From the IMG/VR virus record IMGVR_UViG_3300015174_000024: a stretch of 15,100 nt of DNA; one strand, 5' to 3'. Position 1 is the stretch's first letter. Each line of letters begins with the position of its first letter. Both the position numbers and the translations under genes were made by a program. Positions 1 to 13,882 of this stretch are shown here, piece after piece. The stretch is from a virus (taxonomy: Duplodnaviria > Heunggongvirae > Uroviricota > Caudoviricetes). The notes beneath the pieces are model-generated. The model was given only the letters and a program-made list of their open reading frames with translations. It did not search any database and was not told the DNA's origin.

Positions 1-165
1 ATGGCAAAGCCGATCATCACGCTCAATGGCCTAAAAATCGTCATTATGTTGGGAATGCTGGTCATTATTCTCTGCGGTATCCGTTTTGCCGCCGAGATCA
101 TCGTGCCGTTTATTCTCGCATTATTTATTGCTGTTATATATAACTTATTTCGCATAACACATTGA
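1..165 (+). pseudogene. tqsA: 5' fragment of AI-2 exporter gene tqsA (ydgG); first ~46 codons intact, then the frame diverges at about nt 138 and stops at 163-165
   Basis: Translation [46 protein letters not shown] matches my memory of the E. coli TqsA N-terminus; the following codons (YNLFRITH, stop) do not, and AT-rich element-like DNA follows. Identification is from memory, not a search. Confidence 0.5.
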
Positions 166-250
166 TTTAATTAAATAATTAACACCGCAAAAAGTGCCAA
201 AAATCGCAAAATGACTACACCAGTGACTACACCGTTCGGTGCACTGTATG

Positions 251-281
251 AAACAACGTGGAACAAATAGACACAAGAAAT
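251..281. repeat. 10-bp-phased direct repeats AACAACgtgg / GAACAAAtag / CACAAGaaat, preceded by TGACTACACC x2 (212-233) and phased A-tracts (189-211)
   Basis: Read directly in the sequence. The same AACAACGTGGAACAA core recurs at 7715-7729 and a related phased array at 13790-13836. Confidence 0.6.
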
Positions 282-863
282 ATACAGGCGGATCATCTTT
301 CCAGGGGGAAGCACACCAATTCATGAGGGGCGTTAATGTCGATATGGGGATCCCCACCTACCGGAATTTTTTTCCGGTTAAACGTTAATCAGGCTGGTGG
401 GCTTTACCTGTTCGGTAGGTGTTATGATTATCGTAATACCTTTCCCCCAATGGGGTAAAAGCATCAACCGTAACGAAAGTCGTTATGGTTGCCACTGATA
501 CCCCAAATTTGGGTATCACGAGTAAGCCCCAAAATCTGGGTGTTACTCTTACTACCCAAACTACGGGTAGTTTCCGTAGTTTCATGGTCGAGTTGCAGAT
601 CTGCAACTCCCCCATTAACCACAGGCGAATTTCCGCCTTCGGTCATTCCTTAATCATCTGCGTAATCATAATGATTATTCAGCAAGCGCAATTTTGCGCT
701 TTGCTTAAAGTTCAGCGAGTTACCGCGCAGACTTCCTCAAATTGAGGTTTCCGAAAATATCAGCGGGTTAGCGATTAAGCTGACCATTAATTAAACTGCG
801 AAAATGTCGTAGTTGTGAGGGGTGTAGCCAACCCATTTTTGGGCCGTCGGGAATATCAACCAG

Positions 864-1145
864 TTACCGCCGCAACCGCTCCGGCTTCTTCCAGTGGTAC
901 GTTATTTTCTCCTTCTCCCGATACATCTCCACGCGGCGACGGTAGGCCAGCAACTCAAGAACTCTGGTTCGTATGTTGCGCATATCCACGCCATTAAGTT
1001 CTATACCATCACGGCGCATCACCTCAGCAACAACACGCGCATAGTTTTCGGCTGTCACGCTGTCCGGCTGCGTGGCCTGTTCGTCAGCCTGCTGGCTGAT
1101 TCCGGCAACGCGGCGGATTAATCCCGTTATTTCGGCTTCTGTCAT
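864..1145 (-). CDS. hypothetical protein, 93 aa, last gene of the packaging operon
   Basis: ATG at 1145 preceded by GAGGT Shine-Dalgarno, 13 nt downstream of the terL stop; no family recognised. Confidence 0.5.
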   Translation of the reverse strand: MTEAEITGLIRRVAGISQQADEQATQPDSVTAENYARVVAEVMRRDGIELNGVDMRNIRTRVLELLAYRRRVEMYREKEKITYHWKKPERLRR

Positions 1146-1158
1146 GCTGCTGACCTCA

Positions 1159-2820
1159 TTACACCCCGCTAAATTCTTCCAGTTTCTGGCGGTGGCTGTC
1201 GCTTATATCAAAAGCAAAATCCTCATGCTCTGCCTGGAATGTACCAAACGCCATCAGCGCCGCCACGCTCGGGTCTATCTTGTTCGGTGATTTTTTCTTG
1301 TTCGGCTTGATATTGGCGTTCGCGTCACTCTGCATCACGACGTTACTCATCGACCAGGACAACACCGGATCGCCACGATGCACAATCACCCTGCGGTTAA
1401 CAAAAACTTCGAACGATTTCGCCGCCGGACTGAATCTGAGGTAGGTTTGCGGGAACGGCTCCACCTCAAAACCTGCCCCCTGTAATTGCGTTCTGAGATG
1501 CGTGGCGTTCCACGTATCAAAGCCCACCAGCCTGATATTAAATTTCTCCGCGTCCTGCATGATGTCATCTCTGATCCGGTCGTAATCAATGCAGTCGCCA
1601 GGCGTTGTGCGTATCCAGCCTGCTTTAGCCCACTGACGATAGATGGCGCGGTTTTTATTGGCGGGGTTCTGTAGCTGAAATTCCGGCAGATAGTGACGGG
1701 AAACCAGCATAATGGTTTTACCGACCGGAAAGGCATAGCACACGCTGGAAATATCGCTGGTTGATGATAAGTCCAGCCCCGCGTAACACTCCTGGCCGTG
1801 TAAATCTTCCTCCGTGAACGTTCCGGCACACTCAGCCCATGCGCCGTTACCCATCCACGGGGTAGCCCCCTGGCACCAGATATTAAATCGCTTTGTCATC
1901 ATCTCCACCCACTGCGACGGAATACCCCGCGCTTTCTGGATGGTTGAGGCCAGTTTTTCACGATCGACGGAAACATCAATATTAGGGTTCGCCTTTATCC
2001 ACATCGCCGGATCATCAACCTCGTTTTCGTCGTCCAGTTCGTAAATCAGTACAAAAATTGAATCGTTAACCTCTTCGCCGTCCAGGATCTGGCAGCAATA
2101 ATCATAGTGCTGCTTACAGGCTGAAACGACGTTGCTGCCTGATGTGGTAATGGCAAATAACAGCCCTTCGGGACGTGCGCCCATCCCCAGCTCAAGCGCG
2201 GAATAAACGCCGTTATCGGGGTGCAAGTGGTATTCGTCCACGATGGAAAGGCTGGGGTTTGTTCCCTCGATGGTTGCCGCTTTTGCTGCCAGCGGCTTTA
2301 ACAGGCTGTTGCTTTTCGGGTGTATCACCTTATGCGCCTGAATATTCACCCGCCTGCGTAACGGTCGGGATAAAAGGCACATCTGACGCGCATCATCAAA
2401 GACGATCCGCGCCTGGTCACGGCTCACCGCTGCGGTGTAGATATCCTGCTGACCGTTCTCCATAATCAGAAACCAGTTAGCCAGAATCGCGGCGGTCGTG
2501 GATTTCGCATTTTTGCGCGGCACTTCGATAAAGGCGCTCGTGTATTTGCGCCGTCCGGTGGCCTTAACCTTAAAGCCGAGGATGCACGCAAAGGCGAACT
2601 GCTGCCACGGCTCCAGCTCAATGGGTCTGCCACGCATCGGTCCTTTTACGTGCGGGCACACCCTGGAAAAGGCAATAAACCGCTCCACAACCTCACGATC
2701 GAACGTGTAAAGGGGGCTTTTAAGGTCCGAAAAGTACCGTTTAACGGCCTGTTTCAGCCGTTTACAGGCCGGAATTTTGCCCGTTTTTACGTCTTCTGCG
2801 TACTTATTCCAGGCGGTCAA
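1159..2820 (-). CDS. terL: terminase large subunit
   Basis: 553 aa; Walker A-like PRKNAKSTT and IVDEYH Walker B-like motif followed by a nuclease-like C-terminal half. Start at 2820 is TTG with a GAGGA SD 5 nt upstream; first in-frame ATG is about 60 codons in. Overlaps the terS 3' end by 17 nt. Confidence 0.9.
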   Translation of the reverse strand: MTAWNKYAEDVKTGKIPACKRLKQAVKRYFSDLKSPLYTFDREVVERFIAFSRVCPHVKGPMRGRPIELEPWQQFAFACILGFKVKATGRRKYTSAFIEVPRKNAKSTTAAILANWFLIMENGQQDIYTAAVSRDQARIVFDDARQMCLLSRPLRRRVNIQAHKVIHPKSNSLLKPLAAKAATIEGTNPSLSIVDEYHLHPDNGVYSALELGMGARPEGLLFAITTSGSNVVSACKQHYDYCCQILDGEEVNDSIFVLIYELDDENEVDDPAMWIKANPNIDVSVDREKLASTIQKARGIPSQWVEMMTKRFNIWCQGATPWMGNGAWAECAGTFTEEDLHGQECYAGLDLSSTSDISSVCYAFPVGKTIMLVSRHYLPEFQLQNPANKNRAIYRQWAKAGWIRTTPGDCIDYDRIRDDIMQDAEKFNIRLVGFDTWNATHLRTQLQGAGFEVEPFPQTYLRFSPAAKSFEVFVNRRVIVHRGDPVLSWSMSNVVMQSDANANIKPNKKKSPNKIDPSVAALMAFGTFQAEHEDFAFDISDSHRQKLEEFSGV

Positions 2821-3160
2821 GCTCGTCCTCTTCTTCTGTTTCCGGTGGGTTTTTACGGCGGCTTATCGGGTCAAAACCGAGCAAGGAGGCCATTTTTATC
2901 ATCACCCTTTCAGCGTCTGATTTCGCGCTTAATGCGGGGTTTCTGCTCTCGCCGCCCTGACTGTTAACAATGCTGAACCCGCGCGCCGCAAGGTCTGCGA
3001 CGGCTTTCCGGTACATGGAGTAGTTGACACAATACAGTTCCAGATTGCTCCAGTCGGCGGGGGTCAGGTCTCCCCGTTCCGCAAGCTGCCGCGATTTTTC
3101 CCGCCACTGCTTCACGGCGATGTCATCCAGGTAGGCGGGGGCTTTCGGTGGTCTTGCCAT
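2804..3160 (-). CDS. terS: terminase small subunit (P27-family-like)
   Basis: 118 aa; LELYC..Y..Y motif and acidic C-terminus typical of P27-type small terminases; sits immediately upstream of and overlapping terL. Confidence 0.75.
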   Translation of the reverse strand: MARPPKAPAYLDDIAVKQWREKSRQLAERGDLTPADWSNLELYCVNYSMYRKAVADLAARGFSIVNSQGGESRNPALSAKSDAERVMIKMASLLGFDPISRRKNPPETEEEDELDRLE

Positions 3161-3448
3161 GCTTATTTTTCGTCAGATTATTTTTCAAAAAATTCCCGTG
3201 CATAAAAATTTGAGGAGGCGTTCGGTGCCCGGCGGGGTCGGGTTTGTCCTGAAAACGCCCCCCACCCCGTCATACAGCCTCATCAGCGATTGCGGAAACA
3301 TTCCATAACCTCGCGGTCACGGTCGGTTAATCGCTTCGCTGTGATGCGTTCTGCGCGTCCTGACGCTTTATCTTTATGCCCTGTTTCCTGTGTCTTCCAT
3401 GCGTCACGCTGCCTTATAAGTCCACGGATAAGGCGGTTTTGTTCCCGC

Positions 3449-3889
3449 TCATTCATCAGCGTCATACATCCAGTTATTGCGGTTAGCGGCCCGTTCTTCC
3501 TCTTCACGAAATCCACCTGCGGCACGCTTGCTTTTTGTTGCCGGATCAAGCCATTTCGTTTTCTGGTTATGACACGCCTGGCACAATGGTTGATGGTTCC
3601 ATTCGGGCCAGAAGAGAACATCATCACCGCCATTAATCGGGATAATGTGATCCACCACCACGGCGGGCGTATATATCCCCTTCTCAAGGCATCGCACGCA
3701 TAACGGGTTTTTACTCAGATACATGGCGCGGTATTTGTCCCACTGTCTGGAATATCCACGCGCGCGGCGGTGTCCTCGTCTGGCATCCTCTGCACGCCAT
3801 GCCGCCCGCCTGTGCTCCTCACACTTGCCGGATTTAACGCGCCTGTTACAGCCTGGTTCTGTGCATCGTCTTAATGGTTGCCACGGCAT
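3449..3889 (-). CDS. HNH endonuclease (packaging-associated)
   Basis: 146 aa; Cys-rich N-terminus, DHIIP...N...H motif and paired Cys (CQACHN); start overlaps the connector stop (TGATG). Confidence 0.85.
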   Translation of the reverse strand: MPWQPLRRCTEPGCNRRVKSGKCEEHRRAAWRAEDARRGHRRARGYSRQWDKYRAMYLSKNPLCVRCLEKGIYTPAVVVDHIIPINGGDDVLFWPEWNHQPLCQACHNQKTKWLDPATKSKRAAGGFREEEERAANRNNWMYDADE

Positions 3890-4185
3890 CAGTACACCCC
3901 CACATCACGGTAAGCCGTCCAGAGTGCGCCTATCGTCATGGGTACGCGTGTTTTTGCGTTATCCGCGACAATCTGGCGATTTTCATACAGGTGAGCGATA
4001 AACATCATGCAGCCAATCTTTATGGCTGGCGTGAACTCCAGCCCGTCATCAAAGCGCCTGCCTATGTGTATCTGGCACGCCTCAAGCGATGCGGCAATGT
4101 ATCCGCTGATTAACTGGTCTTCATCGTCGCCATCGATGCGGCAATGGAGTTTCACTTCTTCCAGGGTGATAAGTTCTTCTGTCAT
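3889..4185 (-). CDS. head-tail connector protein (gp6-like)
   Basis: 98 aa; LITLEEVKLHCRIDGDDEDQLI motif typical of gp6-like connector family; ATGA overlap with upstream gene. Confidence 0.7.
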   Translation of the reverse strand: MTEELITLEEVKLHCRIDGDDEDQLISGYIAASLEACQIHIGRRFDDGLEFTPAIKIGCMMFIAHLYENRQIVADNAKTRVPMTIGALWTAYRDVGVY

Positions 4186-4520
4186 TTTTCCGCGCCCTCA
4201 CGACAAAGAATTTCAAGGCGTGTCCTGGCGGCATCCGGCAGCGGCTGCCCGATGATATTCAGTACACGCCCCGCCAGCGGCCCCGTACTGACCTTTATCC
4301 GGCTGGTGGCGTTGATGTCCTTCCGGTACCGTATCCAGATCCTTACGGTACCAATCGCCAGCTCTGCGCCCGATGAAATGGCCTCCTTGCTGCTGACCAT
4401 GTTCACGCTTGCCCAGAGTGTGTGACCGTCCTCCCACGTTTCGAGTATTTCGCCGGTTATATCCCTGGTCTGTTTCAGGGTCTGAATCGTTATCCTGTCA
4501 CGCAGTCGCCCTATGTTCAT
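4182..4520 (-). CDS. head closure / head-tail adaptor protein
   Basis: Start chosen at ATG 4520 (MNIGRLRDRITIQ...), which forms an ATGA overlap with the portal stop; the ORF-track upstream extension to 4562 lies inside portal. About 112 aa, family-typical N-terminus. Confidence 0.7.
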   Translation of the reverse strand: MNIGRLRDRITIQTLKQTRDITGEILETWEDGHTLWASVNMVSSKEAISSGAELAIGTVRIWIRYRKDINATSRIKVSTGPLAGRVLNIIGQPLPDAARTRLEILCREGAEK

Positions 4521-5728
4521 TCCGGTTTTTCTCCCTCGCTGATTTTTACTTCCTGTTTCCATGCCTGGCTGAACTCATCACCACCATCACGCGGTGACAG
4601 ACCTTCACGTTCGCGGGCTTCGTTCGGACACATAACGCCGGATTTGATGCCGCGCTCATAGGTGGCAAAGCGTTCGCCAGGTGTGGCCCGTAACAGGTCC
4701 GCGCTGTCAAACTCCACCTGATACCGGATACCAGGTACAGGCGAGGCCACCAGCAGGGCGTTTTTTATCTGCTGCTCAAAGTTCGCCAGCCACGGGCGCA
4801 TCGTCATGGTGAGAAATGCGCGGCTTGCCTCGCTGAAATTGCTGTAGGTGCTGTTGCTGTATTCCTGCAAAAAAATCGGCGAGACGTTGAACATTCGGGC
4901 GATGTCTTCAATGGTGAAGCGACGGGAGGCCAGCCATTCAGCATCCTGATTACTCATGCCCAGCTGCTGATAGCTCATACCCCCTTCAAGGATGGGCGTT
5001 TTTCCGGCGTTTCTGGCCCCTTTGTAGCGTTCCAGTGCGGCTAATGCCTGTTTGCCCTTCACGCCGTCCAGCCATTCGCCTGACGTGATAACCCCTGCCG
5101 CCATCATGCCATCACGCATCACGCTCGCGCCGTGGCGTTGTTGGGCCAGCCCAAGCCCCAGCGATTCGCGGCAGATGGTTACAGGTGAGCGCCCCATAAA
5201 GCCGTCATCCGTGGAGTAACGAAGGTGAAGTACTTCCCACGGTAAATAGTTGCGGGTGTTTCCGGTGTAGGCGTCAGTGATGCAGTAGCGCCAGTTGTGT
5301 TCGCCTGTCTGCTCCACGTTCACCGACTGCGGCGGGTAAGGATGTAAAGCCGCCGGAAAACCATCACGCCCCCACTGAATCACCGCATAAGCATTACCGT
5401 TTAACAGGCAGTGGCGGATCATCATTCGCTTAAACTGGTAGGGGGTTTGCCATGCGTTCGGGCGCTCGTTGAGGATGTGATCGACCGGATGAGAATCAAG
5501 CCACTCGCGGGCCTCCTTCCCCTTCTCATTGCGTACCAGGTACAGGTAACACGGCATGGTAGCCACCGCCTCAGAGATGACCGTCACGGCGTTCATGACG
5601 GCGGGCAGTGATTCCGCTGTCCCCGATGATACGTACTCACCCGCCCCCGTGTTCGATGTGCCAGCCAGCGCCATAAATTCATCCAGCGTCATGCTGCGCT
5701 GCTCTTTTTTTCTTCTGAAAGGCCACAT
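4517..5728 (-). CDS. portal protein (HK97 family)
   Basis: 403 aa; size, position between protease and adaptors, GGGGG SD 6 nt upstream of ATG 5728. Confidence 0.85.
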   Translation of the reverse strand: MWPFRRKKEQRSMTLDEFMALAGTSNTGAGEYVSSGTAESLPAVMNAVTVISEAVATMPCYLYLVRNEKGKEAREWLDSHPVDHILNERPNAWQTPYQFKRMMIRHCLLNGNAYAVIQWGRDGFPAALHPYPPQSVNVEQTGEHNWRYCITDAYTGNTRNYLPWEVLHLRYSTDDGFMGRSPVTICRESLGLGLAQQRHGASVMRDGMMAAGVITSGEWLDGVKGKQALAALERYKGARNAGKTPILEGGMSYQQLGMSNQDAEWLASRRFTIEDIARMFNVSPIFLQEYSNSTYSNFSEASRAFLTMTMRPWLANFEQQIKNALLVASPVPGIRYQVEFDSADLLRATPGERFATYERGIKSGVMCPNEAREREGLSPRDGGDEFSQAWKQEVKISEGEKPE

Positions 5729-5729
5729 A

Positions 5730-6287
5730 TCACACCCCCGCTAAATCCACCCACCAGCGGCGATTATCCGCACGCGGCATTTTTTCGGGGTGCTGCTCAT
5801 ACAGGGAACGGCGGGCCAGCTCCACGCCGGAATCGGGGTAAGCCGGTACCGATGTAACGGTAATTTCGTACAGTTCCGCCACCAGCACGGTGCGCACGCA
5901 TGGATCTGTTGTGGTATCCCATACATCCTTACGGGAGCGAAAGCCAAAGCTCATCCCCGAGATGTCCCCACGCTTAACCAGTTCGATAACGTCGCGCCCT
6001 GTACTGGTATCCGGTGGGGTCAGTTCAAAGCGTAACCCTGTTTCGTCCTCTTCCAGTTTCAGCGTGCCGGAACGGGTGCGCCCCAGTAACATGCTGTGGT
6101 CATGCTCATACAGGCCTCGAACGTCATTACCCGCCGCAAGCCACTCAGTAAACGCCCCCCGCTGGAATTTTTCGTAAAACTCCCCCCATAGCAGTTCTGA
6201 AAGCTTATCCCAGCGAACAACGTAGCCCGTCAGCGTACCGGCTCCGCTGGTAGTGATTTCCGATGACCGGATTTCCATACTCTTCAT
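5730..6287 (-). CDS. prohead maturation protease (HK97 family)
   Basis: About 185 aa; GYVVRWDK and HDHSMLLGRT motifs. Start placed at ATG 6287 (GGTGA SD); ORF is open to ATG 6302, which lacks an SD. Confidence 0.8.
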   Translation of the reverse strand: MKSMEIRSSEITTSGAGTLTGYVVRWDKLSELLWGEFYEKFQRGAFTEWLAAGNDVRGLYEHDHSMLLGRTRSGTLKLEEDETGLRFELTPPDTSTGRDVIELVKRGDISGMSFGFRSRKDVWDTTTDPCVRTVLVAELYEITVTSVPAYPDSGVELARRSLYEQHPEKMPRADNRRWWVDLAGV

Positions 6288-6302
6288 AATTTTTTCACCC
6301 AT

Positions 6303-6330
6303 AAAACACTAAAGGGGCTTTTAAGCCCCT
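6303..6330 (-). terminator. hairpin plus U-rich tract between capsid and protease genes (possible attenuator)
   Basis: Minus strand reads AGGGGC-ttaaaa-GCCCCT followed by TTAGTGTTTT, directly after the capsid stop. Confidence 0.4.
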
Positions 6331-6341
6331 TCTGTATGCTG

Positions 6342-7499
6342 TTAATCGTCGTCCTGTGGCAGTTCCAGAATCTTGATCGCGTTCGAATCCACCACGCCAC
6401 CGCCTAAATATTTCTGCGTGAAAATTTTGATGAAGCCCGGCTCTGTGAGGTTGTCCGGTCTGGTGCGAACACCTGTTTCGTGATCAACAATGTAGTAACC
6501 GCGTTTGAAGTCACCCAGGGCAATAACGTTATCCGGCATAAACTCCAGATATTCGACCGGAAGGCCCAGTAACGTATCAGGATCACCCGCCTGTAAACGG
6601 TCGCGCCAGATGTAATCACCGTTCGCGTTCTTCACCTTCTGAAGTTTTGCCGCCGTCGTGGAGTTAACCACCCAGACCGCGTTTTTGCGGTATTTTTTAC
6701 GTAATGCAAATTTCAGGTCGATCAGCGGGTCCGCAGATGTCCACGCCAGAGATTCGGAAGGTTTAATTACCTGCAACGTACCAAAATCACGCTCTTTGTC
6801 GTTCTTCTCTGCACGGGGTACGGATAAAAAGCCTTTTGCTTTTTTGTCACCGTCGCCCACAACCAGATCGCTTTCTTCGGTTTCCGTGAAGTTGTCGCCA
6901 ATCTCGCCCGTCAGCCATGAAAGGATGTCCACATCGGAAAAATCCACGATTTCCTGCGTGGTGCGCGGGTACGCATAGACCGGATACAGCTTAATGCTCA
7001 CCTCGTTAATCTGCGGGGTGCTGGTCTGTTCGCGTGCCTTACCCTCTTCACCGTGGTTAACGGTCGCACCGCCAGCGGAAACAAGCTGCTTAAACTCGTT
7101 GCTGCTGATTTTCTTCACGGTACAGATGCGGCGCATGGTGGATTCATCCGTCAGCATTCGCATGATTTCGGTGTTCAGTTCGGGGATAACGGTATAACCA
7201 CCATCAGCGGGAACGCCTGTACTTAATGCGCGGGTTTCACCTGTCAGAATGTAGTGACGTAGTTCGGCTGGGTCAGTGGTCTGACTGCTTTTACCTGGCT
7301 TGCTGCGCTCTTCGTCTGCAATGGCTTCAAGGCGGGAAATGTCTTTATCGAGGGATTCAGCTTTAGCGCGTAATTCGTCAAATTTTGCGCCCTCAGCATC
7401 GTTAAGACTGCGGTTTTCTTTTTCCGCGTTCTCCAGCATGTCGCGCATCTGATTTTTAATGGCGGTTTTCTGCTGGCGTAATTCGATTATTCTCGGCAT
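6342..7499 (-). CDS. major capsid protein (HK97 fold) with N-terminal coiled-coil delta/scaffold domain
   Basis: 385 aa; charged coiled-coil N-terminal ~100 aa, then capsid-like body; followed by protease and portal. Confidence 0.9.
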   Translation of the reverse strand: MPRIIELRQQKTAIKNQMRDMLENAEKENRSLNDAEGAKFDELRAKAESLDKDISRLEAIADEERSKPGKSSQTTDPAELRHYILTGETRALSTGVPADGGYTVIPELNTEIMRMLTDESTMRRICTVKKISSNEFKQLVSAGGATVNHGEEGKAREQTSTPQINEVSIKLYPVYAYPRTTQEIVDFSDVDILSWLTGEIGDNFTETEESDLVVGDGDKKAKGFLSVPRAEKNDKERDFGTLQVIKPSESLAWTSADPLIDLKFALRKKYRKNAVWVVNSTTAAKLQKVKNANGDYIWRDRLQAGDPDTLLGLPVEYLEFMPDNVIALGDFKRGYYIVDHETGVRTRPDNLTEPGFIKIFTQKYLGGGVVDSNAIKILELPQDDD

Positions 7500-7536
7500 A
7501 AAAAAAGTCCTGGGGTTAAGTAAGGAACTCCAGGAC
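7500..7536 (-). promoter_or_regulatory. terminator-like stem-loop plus T7 run immediately upstream of the capsid start codon
   Basis: Minus strand: GTCCTGG - 16 nt loop - CCAGGAC - TTTTTTT - ATG. The 3' arm contains the only SD-like AGGA. Confidence 0.35.
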
Positions 7537-7713
7537 GCGGCAAAAACTCAACCGTTTTTCATAAGGAAATCAGCAATCGCACCGATCGTTTTCCCGCCTG
7601 GTAATGAATATTGGCGAGAACATTAACAGGCGGAAAAGTGGCCCCAGCGTCCTGGCACCACGGGCGAGAATAATCATGATTCAGTTCGGGTAAAATATGC
7701 CGATCCGCTCAGT

Positions 7714-7740
7714 GAACAACGTGGAACAACCACGAACAAA
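7714..7740. repeat. 10-bp-phased direct repeats GAACAACgtg / GAACAACcac / GAACAAAtaa, about 220 bp upstream of the capsid operon
   Basis: Read directly; shares the 15-mer AACAACGTGGAACAA with 252-266. Confidence 0.6.
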
Positions 7741-7754
7741 TAATTTACAAAACA

Positions 7755-7780
7755 TGACAAAAAGCCGGATTGCTCCGGCT
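7755..7780 (-). terminator. rho-independent terminator after the PerC-like gene
   Basis: Minus strand AGCCGGA-gcaa-TCCGGCT followed by TTTTTGT, 7 nt after the stop codon. Confidence 0.55.
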
Positions 7781-7786
7781 GTGTGA

Positions 7787-8059
7787 TTATCTGTCCTGGT
7801 AATTTCGCCATATTTCATTACCAGCACCATCCATACCCATTTCGGCATAAGTGCGATCGACCGCCTTTTTCAGGTCTCCGTAGTTATCCGGCGGCTCCGG
7901 TGGCCTCTGTGCCTTCCTGGAACATTCCAGCCGTCGCATCGTGATGTGATGCCGTTCCTTGTCTGTCTCCACCAGTTGCATGACTTCACCCCATCGCGCC
8001 GACGCTCTCCGGTAAAAGCCTTTCGCCTCCAGTTCTTCCGCTATGCGGTCATGTACCAT
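7787..8059 (-). CDS. PerC-family transcriptional regulator (Pch-like)
   Basis: About 90 aa; N-terminal AEELEAKGFYRRASARW resembles the PerC/Pch motif as I recall it. ATG 8059 has a GAGGGG SD; the ORF track starts at GTG 8068. Confidence 0.5.
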   Translation of the reverse strand: MVHDRIAEELEAKGFYRRASARWGEVMQLVETDKERHHITMRRLECSRKAQRPPEPPDNYGDLKKAVDRTYAEMGMDGAGNEIWRNYQDR

Positions 8060-8071
8060 CGTCCCCACCCC

Positions 8072-8482
8072 TCAGAACGGAATATCATCACCGTAAGGGT
8101 CATCGCCTCCCGCTGGTGGCTGATTACCCTGTGTGCCTGTGGTCTTGCGTCGGCTCCCACCAGGACGTGCCGCACGGGCACTGATTACGCTGTCTGCAAT
8201 AACCTGATAACCCTGCCGCGTTTCCCCGTTCTGTCCGGTCCACTGGCTGACCTGCATCGTGCCGGATACGCTGGCAACGTCGCCTTTTTGATGTTTAGCC
8301 AGGAAGTCGGCCTGCTTACCAAATGCGATGACCGATAGCCATAACGTCGCCTGTCCATCCTGTGCCTGGCTGCATGGCAGCGATACCGCCATACGCGCCA
8401 GCGTCATCGGTGTACCCTTGCTGGTCTGTTTTACCTGCGGGTCGTCCACCAGCCGCCCGTAAGCTGCTATCTGTGCTGTCAT
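8072..8482 (-). CDS. ssb: single-stranded DNA-binding protein
   Basis: 136 aa; OB-fold-like core (WLSVIAFGK), Gly/Pro-rich linker and the diagnostic acidic C-terminus ending DDIPF; ATGA overlap with the upstream gene. Confidence 0.8.
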   Translation of the reverse strand: MTAQIAAYGRLVDDPQVKQTSKGTPMTLARMAVSLPCSQAQDGQATLWLSVIAFGKQADFLAKHQKGDVASVSGTMQVSQWTGQNGETRQGYQVIADSVISARAARPGGSRRKTTGTQGNQPPAGGDDPYGDDIPF

Positions 8483-8757
8483 GATTCCACCTCTCCGGTT
8501 TTAACGTTGATGGTTGTTACCTGTTCCGCTTCGGCAATCTCCCGCTCTGTCAGCGTGGCAAAATTTGCCGCCGTCGTGGTCATGAATGCGCTTATCAGTT
8601 CGGGATGTGCTTTCGCGTATCCTTCCCCCGCGTGGCGGTCTATCGTTCTGATTGCCACCTTTAAAGCGTGCTCTGTCATGTCTAACGCGCGATATTTCGG
8701 TTCTGTTCTGTCTCTGCGTTTTTTGAGTGATTTATTAAATTTCCCTGAAGTGTGCAT
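8479..8757 (-). CDS. hypothetical protein, 92 aa
   Basis: ATG 8757 with a GAGGGGG SD about 12 nt upstream; first gene after the iteron region; coupled to ssb. Confidence 0.45.
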   Translation of the reverse strand: MHTSGKFNKSLKKRRDRTEPKYRALDMTEHALKVAIRTIDRHAGEGYAKAHPELISAFMTTTAANFATLTEREIAEAEQVTTINVKTGEVES

Positions 8758-8805
8758 ATTTATTTTTACCCCCTCGTTTAAAAAGTTTTGAGTTGTGCCT
8801 CCCCT

Positions 8806-9032
8806 TGTCTACCTTATCTACCTTAGTGGCCCTCATACCAGTAATGGCGCGGCTTTCAGCGGGGTAGAGTGCTTTTATCCACTATCTACCCCGTGTCTAC
8901 CTCCCTGTCTGATTCAGGTAAAATCAGGTAGAGAGGGTAGATAGTGGGTAGACAGTAAAAAAAGGTTATCTACCTAACTTAATGCACTGAATTAAATGTA
9001 TTTTTCTTTACTCAGGTAGACAGGGTAGACAG
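8806..9032. repeat. iteron array (about 11 copies of GGTAGAnA / TnTCTACC in both orientations) with an AT-rich stretch; candidate replication origin
   Basis: Octamers at 8806, 8815, 8863 (partial), 8884, 8894, 8927, 8937, 8948, 8967, 9015, 9024; AT-rich segment 8975-9012; lies immediately downstream of the primase gene. Confidence 0.55.
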
Positions 9033-9045
9033 CAATTACAAAAAA

Positions 9046-10800
9046 TTATAAAAACGCGTCGCACTCGTCTGTTGTTATTGCGTTAGTCTGCGTTACTCCC
9101 TTAACTTTCCGCGTAATATATTCATGTCCGTAAACTTTCGCGGCTGGCTTCATAGCCTTGCCAAAGTCATTTACGTTTAGCGGTTTGCTCCTGCCTGCGT
9201 ACGCCATAAACGCCAGATAGACGCGGTAAAGGCTGTTTCTGGTCGTGTACTTCACTGAATCGCCACCGCCGCCCATCATCAGGCCGCGTGCTTCCTCCAG
9301 AAAATTCAGGAACTGGCAAAACTCAATAACCGGATCCGTCTGTTGCTTTATTGCCAGAGCTTCATCACCGTCACGCTGTTCCAGTAGTAAAGCCCGTGCC
9401 TTCTCAGGGTCGGTAAAGTTCGCCAGCAATCGGCGGATAATGACAGGGATTTCAGCCGCGATCTTTTCCGGTAGCTCCCTGTCTTTTTCGGCCTCACTGA
9501 CGATATTGTCGAAACGGAAAATCACGCGACGACGTGCCACACCTCCGGCCCGTTCGGTGAATATCATCGGGTTATTGTTGGTCGCCAGCACCACCGCCCT
9601 GATTACCGCCGTGAAACGCTTTTCGTATTTCGGGTTAATTTCCACGGGGTCACCGCCCGTGATTTTCTTGATGCCCGTTCCTTCGCCTGTATATTTCGGC
9701 TGGTCAGCCAGGACGATAAGACGACTCCCGACAACCTGCGCACGTCCACCAGCATCATCAAGCGATGTCATTTCAGCGCTTACCGTGTTCTGTTTCCCTG
9801 CCAGAAGGCTGGCTATGTGTGTGAATGTACTTTTACCGCTCCCGCCGTCTCCGGTGGCCTCAATAAACATCTGCCAGTCGTACCGGTTCGCCATAATCAT
9901 GTACAGCGCGGCACATATACGCATCATCTTGCGCGGGTCTTTTCCGGCTGCGTGCTCAAGCCATTTATGAAAGTTTGGCGCGTTATCGCGGATGTTCTCC
10001 CCTGGTGCTGGTGGCGTGTACTCAATGCCGTTGTGCGTGGTGATCCAGTTCTCCGGCGTGTGCGGGGAAAATTCCCCCGTTTTCAGGTCAAGCGCACCAT
10101 TGGCGAACGGCAACAAATCGCCGGACGGCTCGCCCATTGGTTCGGCAATAACTTTTAACGCTTCCACGGCGTTATTGATTACGCGCTTGCTGAAAGTGGC
10201 CCTGTGCTCTGAATAGATCGCCACCATTTCGCGGCTAAGTTCCATTGTGCTGACCGGACACCATACCCCGCCGCGCCATACGTGAACGATTTCACTTTCA
10301 GGATGTACGCAAACGCCATCAAAGCGATCGGCAAGCAGCTGCGCGCGCTCACTGTCCGCCATCTGCGAAAGTTGCGCCTTTTGCTTTACCGGAAGCTCAA
10401 TGACCAGACCATCAGAAAGATTCTGGCGCTCACGGGCCAGATATTCGCGCCAGTTCTCCACCTTCTGACCGTGCATACCATCAGGGTAAAAATTTGCATC
10501 CTGTACGCCTGCCGCCGCCAGCTTCTGACCAATCCCCTTTATCATTACTGGCGCAAGATATCCGGCCCTGAATATGCGCACGGATTCTCTGCCTTCCGGC
10601 ACAATTTGCAGCTTATCCAGTTCGGATAACTGCTGCTCCCCAAGCCACACAGGAGGCTCATTATCTCCGGCCATACGCGCGTCATGTTCCTGCCATTGTT
10701 TTGCGTGTGACCAGGCATCACTACCCGCAAAAATAATGACTTCTGTTTCTTTGTGTTTTATGCCGCGTGACTGCTGTTTTACGTTCGGTGCCAGTTTCAT
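9046..10800 (-). CDS. primase/helicase replication protein (P4-alpha-like, Pri-Rep)
   Basis: 584 aa; central Walker A GDGGSGKST and a D5-like NTPase region, with an N-terminal primase-like domain; ATGA overlap with the upstream small ORF. Confidence 0.85.
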   Translation of the reverse strand: MKLAPNVKQQSRGIKHKETEVIIFAGSDAWSHAKQWQEHDARMAGDNEPPVWLGEQQLSELDKLQIVPEGRESVRIFRAGYLAPVMIKGIGQKLAAAGVQDANFYPDGMHGQKVENWREYLARERQNLSDGLVIELPVKQKAQLSQMADSERAQLLADRFDGVCVHPESEIVHVWRGGVWCPVSTMELSREMVAIYSEHRATFSKRVINNAVEALKVIAEPMGEPSGDLLPFANGALDLKTGEFSPHTPENWITTHNGIEYTPPAPGENIRDNAPNFHKWLEHAAGKDPRKMMRICAALYMIMANRYDWQMFIEATGDGGSGKSTFTHIASLLAGKQNTVSAEMTSLDDAGGRAQVVGSRLIVLADQPKYTGEGTGIKKITGGDPVEINPKYEKRFTAVIRAVVLATNNNPMIFTERAGGVARRRVIFRFDNIVSEAEKDRELPEKIAAEIPVIIRRLLANFTDPEKARALLLEQRDGDEALAIKQQTDPVIEFCQFLNFLEEARGLMMGGGGDSVKYTTRNSLYRVYLAFMAYAGRSKPLNVNDFGKAMKPAAKVYGHEYITRKVKGVTQTNAITTDECDAFL

Positions 10801-11096
10801 TTTTTACCCCTGAATCCGTTAATCATGGTTTTCAGCTTCTGGATGTTTGCCCGTGCCCTGGCGTTGCTGGTGGACACGTTATGCGGCGCGGTCTGTACCA
10901 GAGAAAAATCACGCCGGAACTGATAAACAGGCATCACGCAATCATATTCGTAACCTTCACGGCGGTAGGTTACGCGCCGTTCTTCCACGCCCTTAATCAT
11001 TACCGTGCCGCCGTACTGGTCGCGGTAAATATCGCCGCGCGTAAATTTAGGGTGAGTGTTGCCACTGGCAGTTAAGCCAGAATATTTAAGTTTCAT
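10797..11096 (-). CDS. hypothetical protein, 99 aa
   Basis: GGAGA SD 9 nt upstream of the ATG; translationally coupled to primase. Confidence 0.5.
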   Translation of the reverse strand: MKLKYSGLTASGNTHPKFTRGDIYRDQYGGTVMIKGVEERRVTYRREGYEYDCVMPVYQFRRDFSLVQTAPHNVSTSNARARANIQKLKTMINGFRGKK

Positions 11097-11101
11097 TATT
11101 T

Positions 11102-11335
11102 TTATTCTCCGGTGTGCTGTTCTTTATATCTGTCGTGCAATAGATCTATTTCTTGCAGTTCCATTATTACAGGCTCAAGAAGCGTTATTAATGCCGTGGC
11201 AATTCTTGATTTTTGTTTGTCGCGTTCATTGTCGCCAAGTGTTTCAAGCCATATGCGCAATATTTCCAGCATGTTTTCACTGTGAGAAAGTGCAAGAAAT
11301 GCGCGGTCTATTGTTTCGTGGTAAATATCACGCAT
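11102..11335 (-). CDS. hypothetical protein, 77 aa
   Basis: GAGGA SD; overlaps the upstream gene stop. Confidence 0.5.
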   Translation of the reverse strand: MRDIYHETIDRAFLALSHSENMLEILRIWLETLGDNERDKQKSRIATALITLLEPVIMELQEIDLLHDRYKEQHTGE

Positions 11336-11561
11336 GGCTTACATCCTCAGGAAATTTTCTTCTATAACGCGCCTCTGCCACATATTCCGCATAATCGGCG
11401 GCGATATTCAGTACATCAAGCCCCGTTGATTTATATTCTCTCGTGGAAAGTAAGAAAAAAGCCGCTCTAATAAGTTCTGGCATTGACGAAAGCGCATCAG
11501 CCGCATCATCAGGAACGCCGGAAAATTCCTGTTTCAGGGAATTAAAACGATCATCACGCAT
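11328..11561 (-). CDS. hypothetical protein, 77 aa
   Basis: GGGGGG SD 5 nt upstream; overlaps neighbours. Confidence 0.5.
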   Translation of the reverse strand: MRDDRFNSLKQEFSGVPDDAADALSSMPELIRAAFFLLSTREYKSTGLDVLNIAADYAEYVAEARYRRKFPEDVSHA

Positions 11562-11919
11562 GTTTACCCCCCTGAATGACCTGATAACCGCAACTGGTCA
11601 GCAACTCGATAAATTCCGGCAGTGTGCCGAAACAGCAATCATCACGCAGCCGTTCACAGGATACCTCGACGCCGTTTTCGTAGTGACTCACCATACATCC
11701 GGTAAAATGCAGATCATCATCGTGATGGCTCGTTGACGGCTTAATCAGTCGCGCACGTTCCGCCAGTTCCAGCAATGCTTCAACGCTTCCGGCAATTGCA
11801 CCATCCGGCAGGTGATAATTACGCACTATGCGCCCGTTCTCCACATTGACCAGCAACTGCCCGGTAAATTTCTCATCAAACTGAATGCTGTTAAGGTCAG
11901 AAATTGACAGATTATGCAT
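11554..11919 (-). CDS. hypothetical protein, about 121 aa
   Basis: Start placed at ATG 11919 (MHNLSI...), which has an AGGAGGTG SD and overlaps the upstream stop; the ORF-track start at 11937 lacks one. Confidence 0.5.
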   Translation of the reverse strand: MHNLSISDLNSIQFDEKFTGQLLVNVENGRIVRNYHLPDGAIAGSVEALLELAERARLIKPSTSHHDDDLHFTGCMVSHYENGVEVSCERLRDDCCFGTLPEFIELLTSCGYQVIQGGKHA

Positions 11920-12136
11920 GGTGCACCTCCTGCACATCAGCCATGATAATTTTTCCGGCCTTATCCAGTGCCTGATCGGCTTTTAGCTGCACAAATGCTA
12001 AATAATGGAAGATGCATTCTGATTCTCTGGCTGCGTGTTTATGCGCCCTGTCAGCAATAACAGAAATATCAATAAGCGCGTGCATCAGCGTAGTGAGCGC
12101 GGCGGCGGCTGCGTCCGGTGTGGTTTTATTGCACAT
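11912..12136 (-). CDS. hypothetical protein, about 74 aa
   Basis: Start placed at ATG 12136 (MCNKTT...) with an AGGAGG SD; the ORF-track start at 12178 is further upstream. Confidence 0.5.
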   Translation of the reverse strand: MCNKTTPDAAAAALTTLMHALIDISVIADRAHKHAARESECIFHYLAFVQLKADQALDKAGKIIMADVQEVHHA

Positions 12137-12326
12137 GGCACACCTCCTGACGAATACGGGCGGCGAATACAGCAACACAACCGGACGGGCAACGGCTACG
12201 CGCTTCGCGTTCCGTCCAGGCGGTTACGTGGATGATTTGAGATTCTCCGGCACTTAGTGCCAGAAAACGCCACACAAAGGCAGTTTGTGTGTGCGCCAGA
12301 CGTGGGGTATGCTGTGTTCCAGCCAT
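12126..12326 (-). CDS. hypothetical protein, 66 aa, first gene of the leftward operon
   Basis: ATG 12326 preceded by AGGAG 8 nt upstream; it is the in-frame C-terminal part of an implausible 378-aa ORF-track call. Confidence 0.45.
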   Translation of the reverse strand: MAGTQHTPRLAHTQTAFVWRFLALSAGESQIIHVTAWTEREARSRCPSGCVAVFAARIRQEVCHVQ

Positions 12327-12435
12327 AATCGTTACTCCTGTTAACGGTTTGGTTAGACGCCCCGCTACTGCCGCAAACAGTTCGGGGCGTTGTCGTTTAC
12401 ATCCTCTTACTGAGGTGTGATTTAAATTAAATTCA

Positions 12436-12491
12436 ACTGAATCACAGGTCAAGTGTTTTTTGTGATTCTTTTTTGTGTATACTGAATCACA
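12436..12491. promoter_or_regulatory. divergent promoter/operator region: GAATCACA at 12439-12446 and 12484-12491, inverted copy TGTGATTC at 12461-12468
   Basis: Read directly. Inverted pair has a 14-bp spacer and overlaps a minus-strand TTGACC -35-like hexamer (revcomp of 12450-12455); the third copy abuts a plus-strand TATACT -10-like hexamer (12478-12483). Confidence 0.5.
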
Positions 12492-12513
12492 TCTTTTGTT
12501 TAGGAGAATGCAC

Positions 12514-12819
12514 ATGGCAAAAAACACTATCAACGACAAATCAAAACAGATTTCAATTCGTATCCCACATGATGCTTTTGATGGCATGGAATCCGTAAAA
12601 CTGGACGGCGAAAGCAACGCCGGATTCATAGTAACCGCCATGCGCGGGGAGATCGCCCGCCGCCAGGCAGAAGGAAGCAGTGAAAATCCTCTGATTTCTT
12701 CTCTCGATGCATTGGCGCAAGTGGAAAAAATTGGTATTAAAGCTACGGAAGAACTCGGGCAACTTATCGCCATCGCTCGTGAAGAACTACAGCGCCGCAA
12801 GGCCAAAGAATCAGAATAA
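12514..12819 (+). CDS. ribbon-helix-helix-like DNA-binding protein (candidate island repressor)
   Basis: AGGAG at 12502-12506, ATG at 12514; N-terminus KQISIRIPHDAFDGME...GFIVTAMRGEIARRQ fits a beta-strand/helix/helix pattern; divergently placed from the replication operon. Confidence 0.5.
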   Translation: MAKNTINDKSKQISIRIPHDAFDGMESVKLDGESNAGFIVTAMRGEIARRQAEGSSENPLISSLDALAQVEKIGIKATEELGQLIAIAREELQRRKAKESE

Positions 12820-12876
12820 TCACTATCAGCGCCGTGGTGTGAGGTATTACGGCGCATTGCTATGCAGGACAACACA

Positions 12877-13050
12877 ATGACCGATAAAGAATTGACCAAA
12901 ACATTATCACCGGCACGGAAAAGACGGCGCAGAAAGATAGAGCATGAATCAGAAAGATTCGCGCCATGTGCTTTTGCCCTTGAGCAATTCCTTAAAGAAT
13001 ACAGGGAAAAGCGCTCATTGCAGGTATGGCAACGAACTGAACCAGACTGA
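12877..13050 (+). CDS. small basic hypothetical protein (about 58 aa)
   Basis: Weak SD; Arg/Lys-rich (RKRRRRK); follows the RHH gene on the same strand. An alternative ATG lies at 12862. Confidence 0.3.
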   Translation: MTDKELTKTLSPARKRRRRKIEHESERFAPCAFALEQFLKEYREKRSLQVWQRTEPD

Positions 13051-13144
13051 TTGCATTGCCCACCAGCCTGATAGCGGCTATCATCCCCGTGCTTATGTTT
13101 GGGATCACACACACAAACGGCGCAGCGGGTTATCTGTTCAGAAA

Positions 13145-13174
13145 GGCGGCTACATTTCGGGGCCGCTTTTTTTA
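13145..13174 (+). terminator. rho-independent terminator ending the short rightward transcription unit
   Basis: GGCGGC ... GCCGC stem followed by TTTTTTT on the plus strand. Confidence 0.45.
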
Positions 13175-13319
13175 TGCCTGAAAAACCCCAATTTTGTGGT
13201 TTTCCAGTCTCACCAGGGCGAACGAATCCCCGCCCACGTTCTGGCGTATATTCAATCTTCATGGTTATAGCTCTGTGTTCAGATGATTGATGTGTGGCGG
13301 CTGCGTGCCGCCAGCGTGA

Positions 13320-13508
13320 TTAATGAACTGCCTTGCAGCTATCCTTCCAGGCCAGAACCTCGGATAAAGACCAGCCAACGGAACGACCGCTAAGTTTACG
13401 ACGTGATGGGAATTGTCCGGCCTTTTCCAGGCGGTAGCGGCATGAGCGGCTAAGGCCTGTTAGCTTTTCGCATTCTTTTTCACGTATAAACCGATCAGTG
13501 CTTAACAC
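13320..13508 (-). CDS. alpA: AlpA-family (Xis/Vis-like) regulator/excisionase
   Basis: 62 aa; LTGLSRS..YRL..G.FP....L....VGW...EV..W pattern; GTG start with AAGGGGG SD; located next to int. Confidence 0.8.
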   Translation of the reverse strand: MLSTDRFIREKECEKLTGLSRSCRYRLEKAGQFPSRRKLSGRSVGWSLSEVLAWKDSCKAVH

Positions 13509-13789
13509 TATTGCCCCCTTTCGTTTCTTAAAGAGTTATTTCGTGTTCTATTGCGTTGGGATGTGTCTGATTGTGTCAGGATGATTCAGAGTTGGCAAAT
13601 GTTGAGGTCGCATGGTTTACAGAAAGAGGAATAATCAGGATAAAATCATTTAAATTCATGTTAATACAAAGGCATAAAATATTGTTTCATGCCTTTTTTC
13701 TCGCTATTTAAAGAGTGATTCGCTAGTGTATAAAAAACCAGTAACACATTAAAAATCAGCTACTTATAAATCCGTACACTTTTTCGCCT

Positions 13790-13836
13790 CTTGTTCGTAG
13801 TTGTTCCGCATTGTTGCTCATTGTTGCACGTTGTAT
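13790..13836. repeat. five 10-bp-phased repeats (plus strand TTGTTcgtag/TTGTTccgca/TTGTTgctca/TTGTTgcacg/TTGTAtctgt; minus strand GAACAA-type) just 3' of int
   Basis: Read directly; related to the GAACAA arrays at 251-281 and 7714-7740 but in opposite orientation. Confidence 0.6.
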
Positions 13837-13882
13837 CTGTTCGCATATCCAGCATGCGCATACTGAAAAAACACGAAAAAAA

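What the first reader, a model, noticed from the sequence alone, without database searches (positions are those of the whole stretch)
1159..7499. Head module gene order is permuted relative to HK97-like phages
Transcription order is capsid, protease, portal, head closure, connector, HNH, (gap), terS, terL. HK97-like phages run terS, terL, portal, protease, capsid, connectors, with HNH far away at the genome end. Here terminase genes come last and the structural block is reversed, yet all genes stay co-oriented and are tightly coupled by ATGA and TGATG overlaps. This suggests a distinct lineage of head module rather than a recently captured phage fragment.
Basis: partly seen in the sequence, partly recalled or inferred. 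Interest (0 to 1): 0.5.

Follow-up and report, generated by a model that had tools for sequence, protein, structure and literature searches.

The report
Capsid-forming phage satellite (cf-PICI) head operon

Summary
On the minus strand the genes run capsid, protease, portal, head closure (Hc1), adaptor (Ad1), HNH, a 60-aa ORF, a conserved gap, terS, terL. They are co-oriented and joined by ATGA/TGATG-type overlaps.

The window is a roughly 15-kb island inserted in E. coli tqsA. It carries an integrase, an AlpA-like regulator, a D5-type primase, SSB and PerC, and no tail or lysis genes. That is a complete Type-A capsid-forming PICI (cf-PICI).

- **Link to the prototype:** its capsid protein is 382/385 identical to the EcCIEDL933 capsid (PDB 9GYI). 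Its packaging half is 97% identical in DNA to an element that encodes the 9GYI capsid sequence exactly.
- **Already published:** Alqurainy et al. describe exactly this conserved order for proteobacterial cf-PICIs. They conclude these are deep lineages, not degraded prophages.
- **My synteny test agrees:** every locus whose capsid is at least 58% identical shows this order. Every true phage homologue where the order could be read (40% identity or less) is portal-first.
- **Caveat on the "permutation":** two of the three claimed differences are map artefacts. HNH-cos-terS-terL is also contiguous in HK97 once the genome is circular. Terminase comes "last" only because the attachment site follows terL.

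Novelty: already known. Interest: low.

The parts
1..165 (+). 5' fragment of the host gene tqsA (AI-2 transporter), interrupted by the island
   Evidence: RefSeq annotation of the 99.4%-identical locus L001; translation
212..234 (.). att repeat TGACTACACCAGTGACTACACCG at the terL-side end of the island. The partner copy lies just beyond the window, past the integrase start.
   Evidence: A 76-nt direct repeat with a 23-nt exact core, 15,030 bp apart in L001
864..1145 (-). 93-aa ORF after terL (PHROG 1561, function unknown), the last gene of the operon
   Evidence: conserved at 87-100% in close relatives
1159..2820 (-). Large terminase TerL (ATPase and nuclease domains), TTG start overlapping terS by 17 nt
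2804..3160 (-). Small terminase TerS, P27/Terminase_4 family
3161..3282 (.). Conserved non-coding HNH-terS spacer, inferred to hold the cos site. It contains the blocks GGGGTGGGGGG.GTTTTCAGGAC and TCAAATTTTTATGCACGG..ATTTTTTGAAAAATAA.
   Evidence: The blocks are above 90% conserved in 38 divergent relatives, while the adjacent 60-aa ORF is 42% conserved. The ends of the linear record LR881103 map to window 3246 and 3173. The function itself is inferred.
3283..3465 (-). Conserved 60-aa ORF overlapping the HNH 3' end (PHROG 3173, function unknown)
3449..3889 (-). HNH endonuclease, the packaging cofactor of HNH-dependent cos terminases
3889..4185 (-). Head-tail adaptor Ad1 (gp6-like, PF05135)
4182..4520 (-). 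Head closure protein Hc1 (PF05521), 48% identical to HK97/HK106 gp7
4517..5728 (-). Portal protein (PF04860)
5730..6302 (-). Prohead serine protease (Peptidase_S78)
6311..6332 (-). A 9-bp GC-rich hairpin followed by a T-rich tail between MCP and protease. It is inferred to be a partial terminator or attenuator that keeps capsid transcript in excess.
   Evidence: HK97 and HK106 also carry annotated terminators after their capsid genes.
6342..7499 (-). HK97-fold major capsid protein, 382/385 identical to the EcCIEDL933 capsid in PDB 9GYI (T=4)
7500..7762 (-). Untranslated region upstream of the capsid gene, inferred to hold the operon promoter. No sigma-70 consensus was found. It contains the repeated AACAACGTGGAACAA-type motif at 7715-7759.
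7763..7780 (-). Intrinsic terminator after the PerC gene, which separates the replication/accessory block from the head operon
7787..8068 (-). PerC-family transcriptional activator homologue
   Evidence: PF06069, 4.6e-43
8072..8482 (-). Single-strand DNA-binding protein
9046..10800 (-). D5-type primase/helicase (the pri-rep replication gene)
13320..13508 (-). AlpA-like excisionase/transcriptional regulator
   Evidence: PHROG 2790, 2e-17; annotated as an HTH regulator in L001
13883..15100 (-). Tyrosine integrase (the window ends at its start)

Best explanation
The region is the capsid-and-packaging operon of a capsid-forming phage-inducible chromosomal island (cf-PICI) of the proteobacterial EcCIEDL933 type. 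It sits in an island of about 15 kb integrated in E. coli tqsA.

The mechanism is taken from the published prototype.
1. A helper phage triggers the island through its AlpA regulator.
2. The island excises using its integrase and replicates using its own primase.
3. It transcribes one long, translationally coupled operon.
4. Its own capsid protein, protease and portal build small T=4 heads.
5. Its own HNH, TerS and TerL cut the island's cos site in the HNH-terS spacer and fill those heads with one 15-kb genome.
6. Hc1 and Ad1 finish the neck and dock a tail stolen from the helper, which is HK106-type for the prototype.

The capsid-first order is an inherited hallmark of this satellite clade. 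Terminase appears last only because the attachment site lies just after terL. HNH-cos-terS-terL is the normal arrangement of HNH-dependent cos phages when drawn as a circle.

Shown here: gene identities, order, overlaps, island borders, absence of tail and lysis genes, near-identity to the prototype capsid, and clade-specific synteny.

Inferred: the exact cos position, the promoter, the attenuator role of the hairpin, and that this particular copy is active.
For: - **Gene content and order:**
- **Island borders:** the island is bounded by split tqsA and a 23-nt exact att repeat 15,030 bp apart.
- **No tail or lysis family** in any window ORF.
- **Link to the prototype:** MCP is 382/385 identical to PDB 9GYI, and the authors state that 9GYI is the EcCIEDL933 capsid. 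Window 817-7785 is 97.1% identical in DNA to L029, which encodes the 9GYI sequence exactly.
[quoted passage not shown] Knock-outs of each packaging gene of EcCIEDL933 abolish its transfer, and only helper tail genes are needed.
- **Published criteria for the family are all met:** size 10-18 kb, the modules, and no lysis genes or complete tail module.
- **Synteny:** 85 complete loci plus about 30 truncated loci or loci with a divergent Hc1 show the same order wherever MCP is at least 58% identical. The canonical order is seen in HK97, HK106, VW-6S and 13 paired phage records (+58).
- **Prevalence:** the module is present in 538 of 5,426 complete E. coli genomes.
Against: No experiment was done on this copy. 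The left half of the island (integrase, regulation, replication) is unrelated in DNA to the EcCIEDL933-like element L029, so the inducing helper and its signal may differ from the prototype.

The cos ends could not be fixed. Two linear database records of relatives end about 42 nt apart, and one lacks 72 nt of the conserved spacer.

No sigma-70-like promoter was found upstream of the capsid gene.
Confidence: 0.95

Rival explanations
1. It is a degraded HK97-like prophage that lost its tail, lysis and early genes and was scrambled by deletions.
For: All eight head and packaging proteins belong to HK97-type families. Hc1 is 48% identical to HK97 and HK106 gp7.
Against: - A co-oriented reversal of order cannot arise by deletion.
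- All genes are intact, and 63 loci keep all eight genes full-length.
- The size is constant at about 15 kb, with its own integrase, AlpA and primase.
- No genuine phage among 50,697 records exceeds 40% MCP identity or 36% TerL identity.
- The same element is conserved across several genera.
Confidence: 0.02
2. It is a classical Gram-negative PICI that recently captured a phage head module, that is, a young PICI-phage hybrid.
For: The integrase-AlpA-primase half is of the classical PICI type and recombines independently of the packaging half (mosaic with L029). The authors first entertained this idea themselves.
Against: The packaging module is far from every phage. It has a conserved, non-phage order in relatives whose MCP is only 58-75% identical, which implies long independent evolution. 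Published capsid and TerL trees place it in a deep satellite clade.
Confidence: 0.03
3. It is an autonomous miniature phage or a gene-transfer-agent-like particle producer that needs no helper.
For: It encodes a complete head and DNA-packaging machine. Several relatives are deposited in GenBank as 'phages' (LR881103, OR544139).
Against: The window has no tail, baseplate, holin or endolysin gene. The prototype with a 99% identical capsid needs helper tail genes gp10 and gp14 for transfer.
Confidence: 0.01

Closest known systems
EcCIEDL933, the prototype capsid-forming PICI of E. coli O157:H7 EDL933 (Alqurainy et al.; He et al.)
   Same: Same gene content and order in the capsid/packaging operon. 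MCP is 382/385 identical to PDB 9GYI. The window shares 97% DNA identity over 817-7785 with an element encoding that exact capsid. The size is also about 15 kb.
   Different: The integrase, regulatory and replication half is unrelated at the DNA level. This copy sits in tqsA. I could not retrieve the prototype's own site from the text.
The vB_KppS-Ant-type cf-PICI group (LR881103 and related IMG/VR contigs)
   Same: Same order. Identities are portal 81%, TerL 81% and MCP 65%. The conserved HNH-terS spacer blocks are shared.
   Different: Hc1 is only 38% identical and Ad1 63%. Several of these elements carry a 765-aa tape-measure-like gene after terL that this window lacks.
HK97 and its relative HK106, the helper phage of EcCIEDL933
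   Same: Same protein families: HK97-fold capsid, S78 protease, portal, gp6/gp7-type connectors, and HNH-dependent cos terminase. HNH-cos-terS-terL is contiguous on the circular map.
   Different: The phage order is terS-terL-portal-protease-MCP-Ad1-Hc1 followed by tail genes. Identities are only 26-27% for portal and TerL, and MCP is not detected by tblastn. The phages are 40 kb with T=7 heads.
Classical Gram-negative PICIs (EcCICFT073 type)
   Same: Integrase, AlpA and primase layout, about 10-15 kb, helper-induced.
   Different: Classical PICIs lack portal, adaptor, connector and terL and use helper capsids. SatelliteFinder treats those genes as forbidden for the PICI model.
cf-PICIs of Firmicutes
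   Same: Same strategy and similar gene content.
   Different: Different gene organisation and independent origin, according to the published trees. Not examined here.

Membership tests
Capsid-forming PICI (cf-PICI), proteobacterial clade | Element size about 10-18 kb, bounded by att repeats | tested here: met
   The 23-nt exact att repeats are 15,030 bp apart in the 99.4%-identical locus L001, inside a split tqsA. The criterion is quoted.
Capsid-forming PICI (cf-PICI), proteobacterial clade | Integrase plus AlpA-type regulator plus primase/replicase module | tested here: met
   Integrase by Pfam. AlpA-like PHROG 2790 at 13320-13508. D5-type primase at 9046-10800.
Capsid-forming PICI (cf-PICI), proteobacterial clade | [quoted passage not shown] | tested here: met
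.
Capsid-forming PICI (cf-PICI), proteobacterial clade | Conserved order: capsid-protease-portal-connectors, then hnh-terS-terL | tested here: met
   Window order. The same order occurs in 85 complete related loci.
Capsid-forming PICI (cf-PICI), proteobacterial clade | No lysis genes and no complete tail module | tested here: met
   Every window ORF was scanned, and none matches a tail or lysis family.
Capsid-forming PICI (cf-PICI), proteobacterial clade | Capsid and TerL cluster with cf-PICIs and are well separated from phage homologues | tested here: met
   This was judged by an identity gap, not a tree. MCP is at least 58% identical to satellites and 40% or less to phages. TerL is at least 69% versus 36% or less.
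Capsid-forming PICI (cf-PICI), proteobacterial clade | Helper-phage induction, production of small island-encoded capsids, transfer that depends on helper tails | not testable with these tools
   Demonstrated for EcCIEDL933. Only sequence identity links this copy to those experiments.
HK97-like tailed prophage (intact or degraded) | Order terS-terL-portal-protease-MCP-Ad1-Hc1, followed by tail genes | tested here: not met
   HK97 and HK106 records compared with the window.
HK97-like tailed prophage (intact or degraded) | Tail and lysis modules, or their remnants | tested here: not met
Classical Gram-negative PICI | No portal, head-tail adaptor/connector or terL; relies on helper capsids | tested here: not met
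   All of these genes are present. They are forbidden components in the PICI model.
Helper-embedded PICI (integrated in a prophage late gene) | The integration site lies inside a late gene of a helper prophage | tested here: not met
   The window sits in the chromosomal gene tqsA. Some relatives do sit inside a prophage terL.

The most novel reading that the evidence does not exclude
The capsid-first order may not be a frozen accident but a selected design. In this reading, a single translationally coupled operon is read capsid first. A hairpin after the capsid gene keeps capsid transcript in excess. The cos site is embedded between the structural genes and the terminase genes. The design would descend from a still unsampled phage lineage that had the same order. 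Nothing here tests this. The data only show that the order is invariant across relatives whose capsid protein identity to the window ranges from 58 to 100%, and absent from the phage relatives whose order was examined (about two dozen records and loci).
Probability: 0.15. Interest if true: 0.35.

Novelty: already known. Interest (0 to 1): 0.12.

Why it matters
As a discovery it does not matter, because the arrangement is the published signature of cf-PICIs. These satellites were reported in about 13% of Enterobacteriaceae genomes. Here the module is present in about 10% of complete E. coli genomes.

It is useful for annotation. This gene order, together with the lack of tail and lysis genes, separates these satellites cleanly from degraded prophages. 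RefSeq labels the genes only as generic phage proteins. Several such satellites are filed in GenBank as phages.

Tried and rejected
- I looked for the EcCIEDL933 coordinates, accession or attB site in the preprint text and found none. I used the deposited capsid structure 9GYI as the link to the prototype instead.
- I tried to fix the cos ends from two linear records of relatives. LR881103 ends at window-equivalent 3246 and restarts at 3173, so it lacks 72 nt of the conserved spacer. PQ569648 ends about 42 nt earlier. The ends disagree, so cos is placed only to the spacer.
- The sigma-70 consensus scan found no promoter on the coding strand upstream of the capsid gene.
- PQ569648 (106 kb, 'Klebsiella phage') looked like a possible large phage with this order. 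It carries the module at one end, in the same terS-first permutation as LR881103. It has only 67 annotated features, and all 16 in the stretch I examined are 'hypothetical protein'. I suspect an assembly chimera and did not count it as a counter-example, though I did not prove this.
- The degraded-prophage, recent-hybrid and autonomous-phage readings were rejected for the reasons given under the rival explanations.
- I made no formal phylogeny and relied on identity gaps and the published trees.
- The first request for the HK106 record failed on a coordinate limit and was repeated.
Full report

Yes. All long ORFs between 864 and 15100 lie on the minus strand. Pfam and PHROG scans give unambiguous assignments:

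| Gene | Coordinates | Family and score |
|---|---|---|
| Major capsid protein (MCP) | 6342-7499 | PF05065, 1.5e-61 |
| Prohead protease | 5730-6302 | Peptidase_S78, 7e-48 |
| Portal | 4517-5728 | PF04860, 2.5e-90 |
| Head closure Hc1 | 4182-4520 | PF05521 |
| Adaptor Ad1 | 3889-4185 | PF05135 |
| HNH endonuclease | 3449-3889 | PF01844 |
| TerS | 2804-3160 | Terminase_4 (P27 family) |
| TerL | 1159-2820 | TerL ATPase and nuclease domains |

They are TGAtATG, ATGA, ATGA and TGATG, and terL starts at TTG 17 nt inside terS.

The 288-nt 'gap' is partly coding. A conserved 60-aa ORF (3283-3465, PHROG 3173) overlaps the end of HNH. That leaves 122 non-coding bases, 3161-3282.

**2. What surrounds it?**

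Upstream in the transcription direction lie a tyrosine integrase (13883-15100) and an AlpA-like regulator (13320-13508). A variable 378-aa ORF and several small ORFs follow, then a DUF4222 protein and a D5-type primase (9046-10800). Next come SSB and a PerC-family gene that ends in a strong terminator. After terL there is one 93-aa ORF. No ORF matches a tail or lysis family.

The window is 99.4% identical over 96% of its length to a locus in many E. coli chromosomes. There it splits the gene tqsA. The island is bounded by a direct repeat with a 23-nt exact core. The two copies are 15,030 bp apart, and one is at window 212-234.

**3. Identity of the element**

The capsid protein is 382/385 identical to PDB 9GYI. 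He et al. state that 9GYI is the T=4 capsid of EcCIEDL933.

One IMG/VR contig of 15.5 kb, L029, encodes the 9GYI sequence exactly. The window is 97.1% identical to it in DNA over 817-7785. Beyond about 8664 almost nothing aligns; only one 82-nt match remains.

So the window carries the EcCIEDL933-type capsid/packaging module joined to a different integrase-regulation-replication half. That mosaicism fits published statements that the two halves of these satellites evolve separately.

**4. The order is already described**

[quoted passage not shown] The search criteria of He et al. list the same modules in the same order. SatelliteFinder found 969 such elements. Type A, with all 11 core genes, occurs only in Proteobacteria, and the organisation is 'very conserved'. 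The window meets every sequence-based criterion.

**5. Independent synteny test**

I collected 127 loci: related loci from one-genome-per-species contigs and from IMG/VR, plus annotated E. coli and phage records fetched earlier. I located the eight window proteins in each by tblastn.

- **Close relatives.** Eighty-five loci show the complete order MCP>protease>portal>Hc1>Ad1>HNH>terS>terL. About 30 more show the same order, either truncated by a contig end or with an Hc1 too divergent to detect. This includes every locus with MCP at least 58% identical, from Shigella, Citrobacter, Erwinia, Gilliamella, Rosenbergiella and Pasteurella elements.
- **Distant relatives.** Every locus with MCP at 37% or less in which the portal was also detected is portal-first.
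- **Phage collection.** The top hits for MCP, portal and TerL are the same few records with the MCP-first order, most of them 11-16.5 kb or shorter. Identities then drop to 40%, 36% and 36% or less. Pairing the coordinates gives 4 of 4 satellite-like records capsid-first and 13 of 13 unambiguous true phages portal-first.
- **Reference phages.** The closest genuine phage, VW-6S, has the canonical order followed by tails. So do HK97 and HK106.
It is not met.

**6. How much of the 'permutation' is real?**

In HK97 the HNH gene lies 319 nt from the right end and terS 50 nt from the left end. On the circular or concatemeric genome HNH-cos-terS-terL is therefore contiguous, as it is here. Several prophage loci show this directly (L008, L013, L058, L072).

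The linear record LR881103 is a related element from an induced lysate. It begins with terS-terL and ends after HNH and the small ORF. So in the packaged form the satellite also has terminase first and HNH last.

What is truly different has two parts. The head genes lie upstream of HNH rather than downstream of terL. Both sub-blocks also run in reverse order while staying co-oriented, which no single inversion or deletion can produce.

**7. Mechanism**

This part is inferred from the prototype. Knock-outs of each EcCIEDL933 packaging gene abolish island transfer without affecting the helper. Helper capsid mutants still allow island transfer. Helper tail mutants block both. The capsid is a T=4 shell of 47.5 nm suited to a 15.5-kb genome, and the adaptor and connector set tail specificity.

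Three features of the window are consistent with this:
- Hc1 is 48% identical to HK97 and HK106 gp7, whereas portal and TerL are 26-27% and MCP is undetectable.
- The spacer 3161-3282 contains blocks above 90% conserved among 38 divergent relatives, while the adjacent small ORF is 42% conserved. This fits a cos site, though its ends could not be fixed.
- A hairpin follows the capsid gene, as in HK97 and HK106.

**8. Verdict**

But this is a textbook member of a family described in 2022-2023 and studied structurally in 2025. The module occurs in 538 of 5,426 complete E. coli genomes.

Novelty: already known. Interest: low.

Noticed in passing
L058, L060, L110 (whole loci); L098 and L122 (about 14.5-19.7 kb): Relatives with the same gene order sit inside the terL gene of an HK97-like prophage. 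In L058, L060 and L110, prophage TerL residues 1-200 lie upstream of the satellite integrase and residues about 195-526 lie downstream of the satellite terL. In L098 and L122 only a prophage TerL fragment starting near residue 307 was seen, downstream of the satellite terL; the upstream half was not observed. The host prophage shows the canonical order side by side with the satellite order. This resembles the helper-embedded PICIs of Mageeney et al. (site A:Terminase_1:245).
   Followed up: partly
L014 2036-4333; also L086, L087, L089, L090, L091, L115, just after terL: A subset of related satellites carries a 765-aa tape-measure-like gene (PHROG 2854, 2e-176) immediately after terL. In LR881103 it lies inside the linear record of the element. 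The Pasteurella element L015 carries tail-terminator and Neck1-like genes. The window has none of these. SatelliteFinder delimits elements from the integrase to the farthest core gene, so such cargo may have been counted as outside the element.
   Followed up: partly
L010 1900-18330 and L012 (Bartonella MAG contigs): A tailed element with a heavily scrambled, co-oriented order: integrase, primase, portal, chaperone-like, protease-capsid fusion, HNH, major tail, Ad1, Neck1, tail terminator, Hc1, terS, terL, tape measure, distal tail. This shows that other permutations of HK97-type modules exist.
   Followed up: partly
window 4182-4520: Hc1 is 48% identical to gp7 of HK97 and HK106, far more than portal or TerL (26-27%); the capsid protein was not detectable. 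Among relatives, Hc1 is also the most variable head gene (38-100%). This fits the published role of these proteins in tail choice.
   Followed up: partly
window 8664-15100 versus L029: The integrase, regulation and replication half shares almost no DNA similarity with the EcCIEDL933-like element, while the packaging half is 97% identical. This is modular mosaicism.
   Followed up: partly
window 12126-13262: A 378-aa ORF with no Pfam hit, whose last 65 residues match repressor-like PHROGs 1743 and 6196. In the otherwise 99.4%-identical strain SCU-204, this region is replaced by Icd-like genes and a YlcI/YnfO gene. It accounts for the 4% of the window not covered there.
   Followed up: no
window 252-286 and 7715-7759; L001 21282-21316: A motif of the type AACAACGTGGAACAA occurs next to both att ends. 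It also occurs twice, overlapping, just downstream of the PerC terminator and upstream of the capsid gene. It could be a binding site for the integrase arm domain or for a regulator.
   Followed up: no
window 7787-8068: A PerC-family transcriptional activator homologue (PF06069, 4.6e-43) is the last gene before the head operon and ends in a strong terminator. PerC/Pch proteins regulate virulence genes in pathogenic E. coli. Its role here, as cargo or as late activator, is unknown.
   Followed up: no
phage records LR881103, OR544139, OR544138, OR850982, PQ569648: Satellites of this family are deposited in GenBank as phages. PQ569648 is a 106-kb record with only 67 annotated features that carries the module at one end. 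I suspect it is a chimeric assembly.
   Followed up: partly
L003 5923-6678 (Rosenbergiella): The portal match covers only about 250 residues, and no downstream head or terminase genes were detected although the locus continues. This may be a decayed copy.
   Followed up: no
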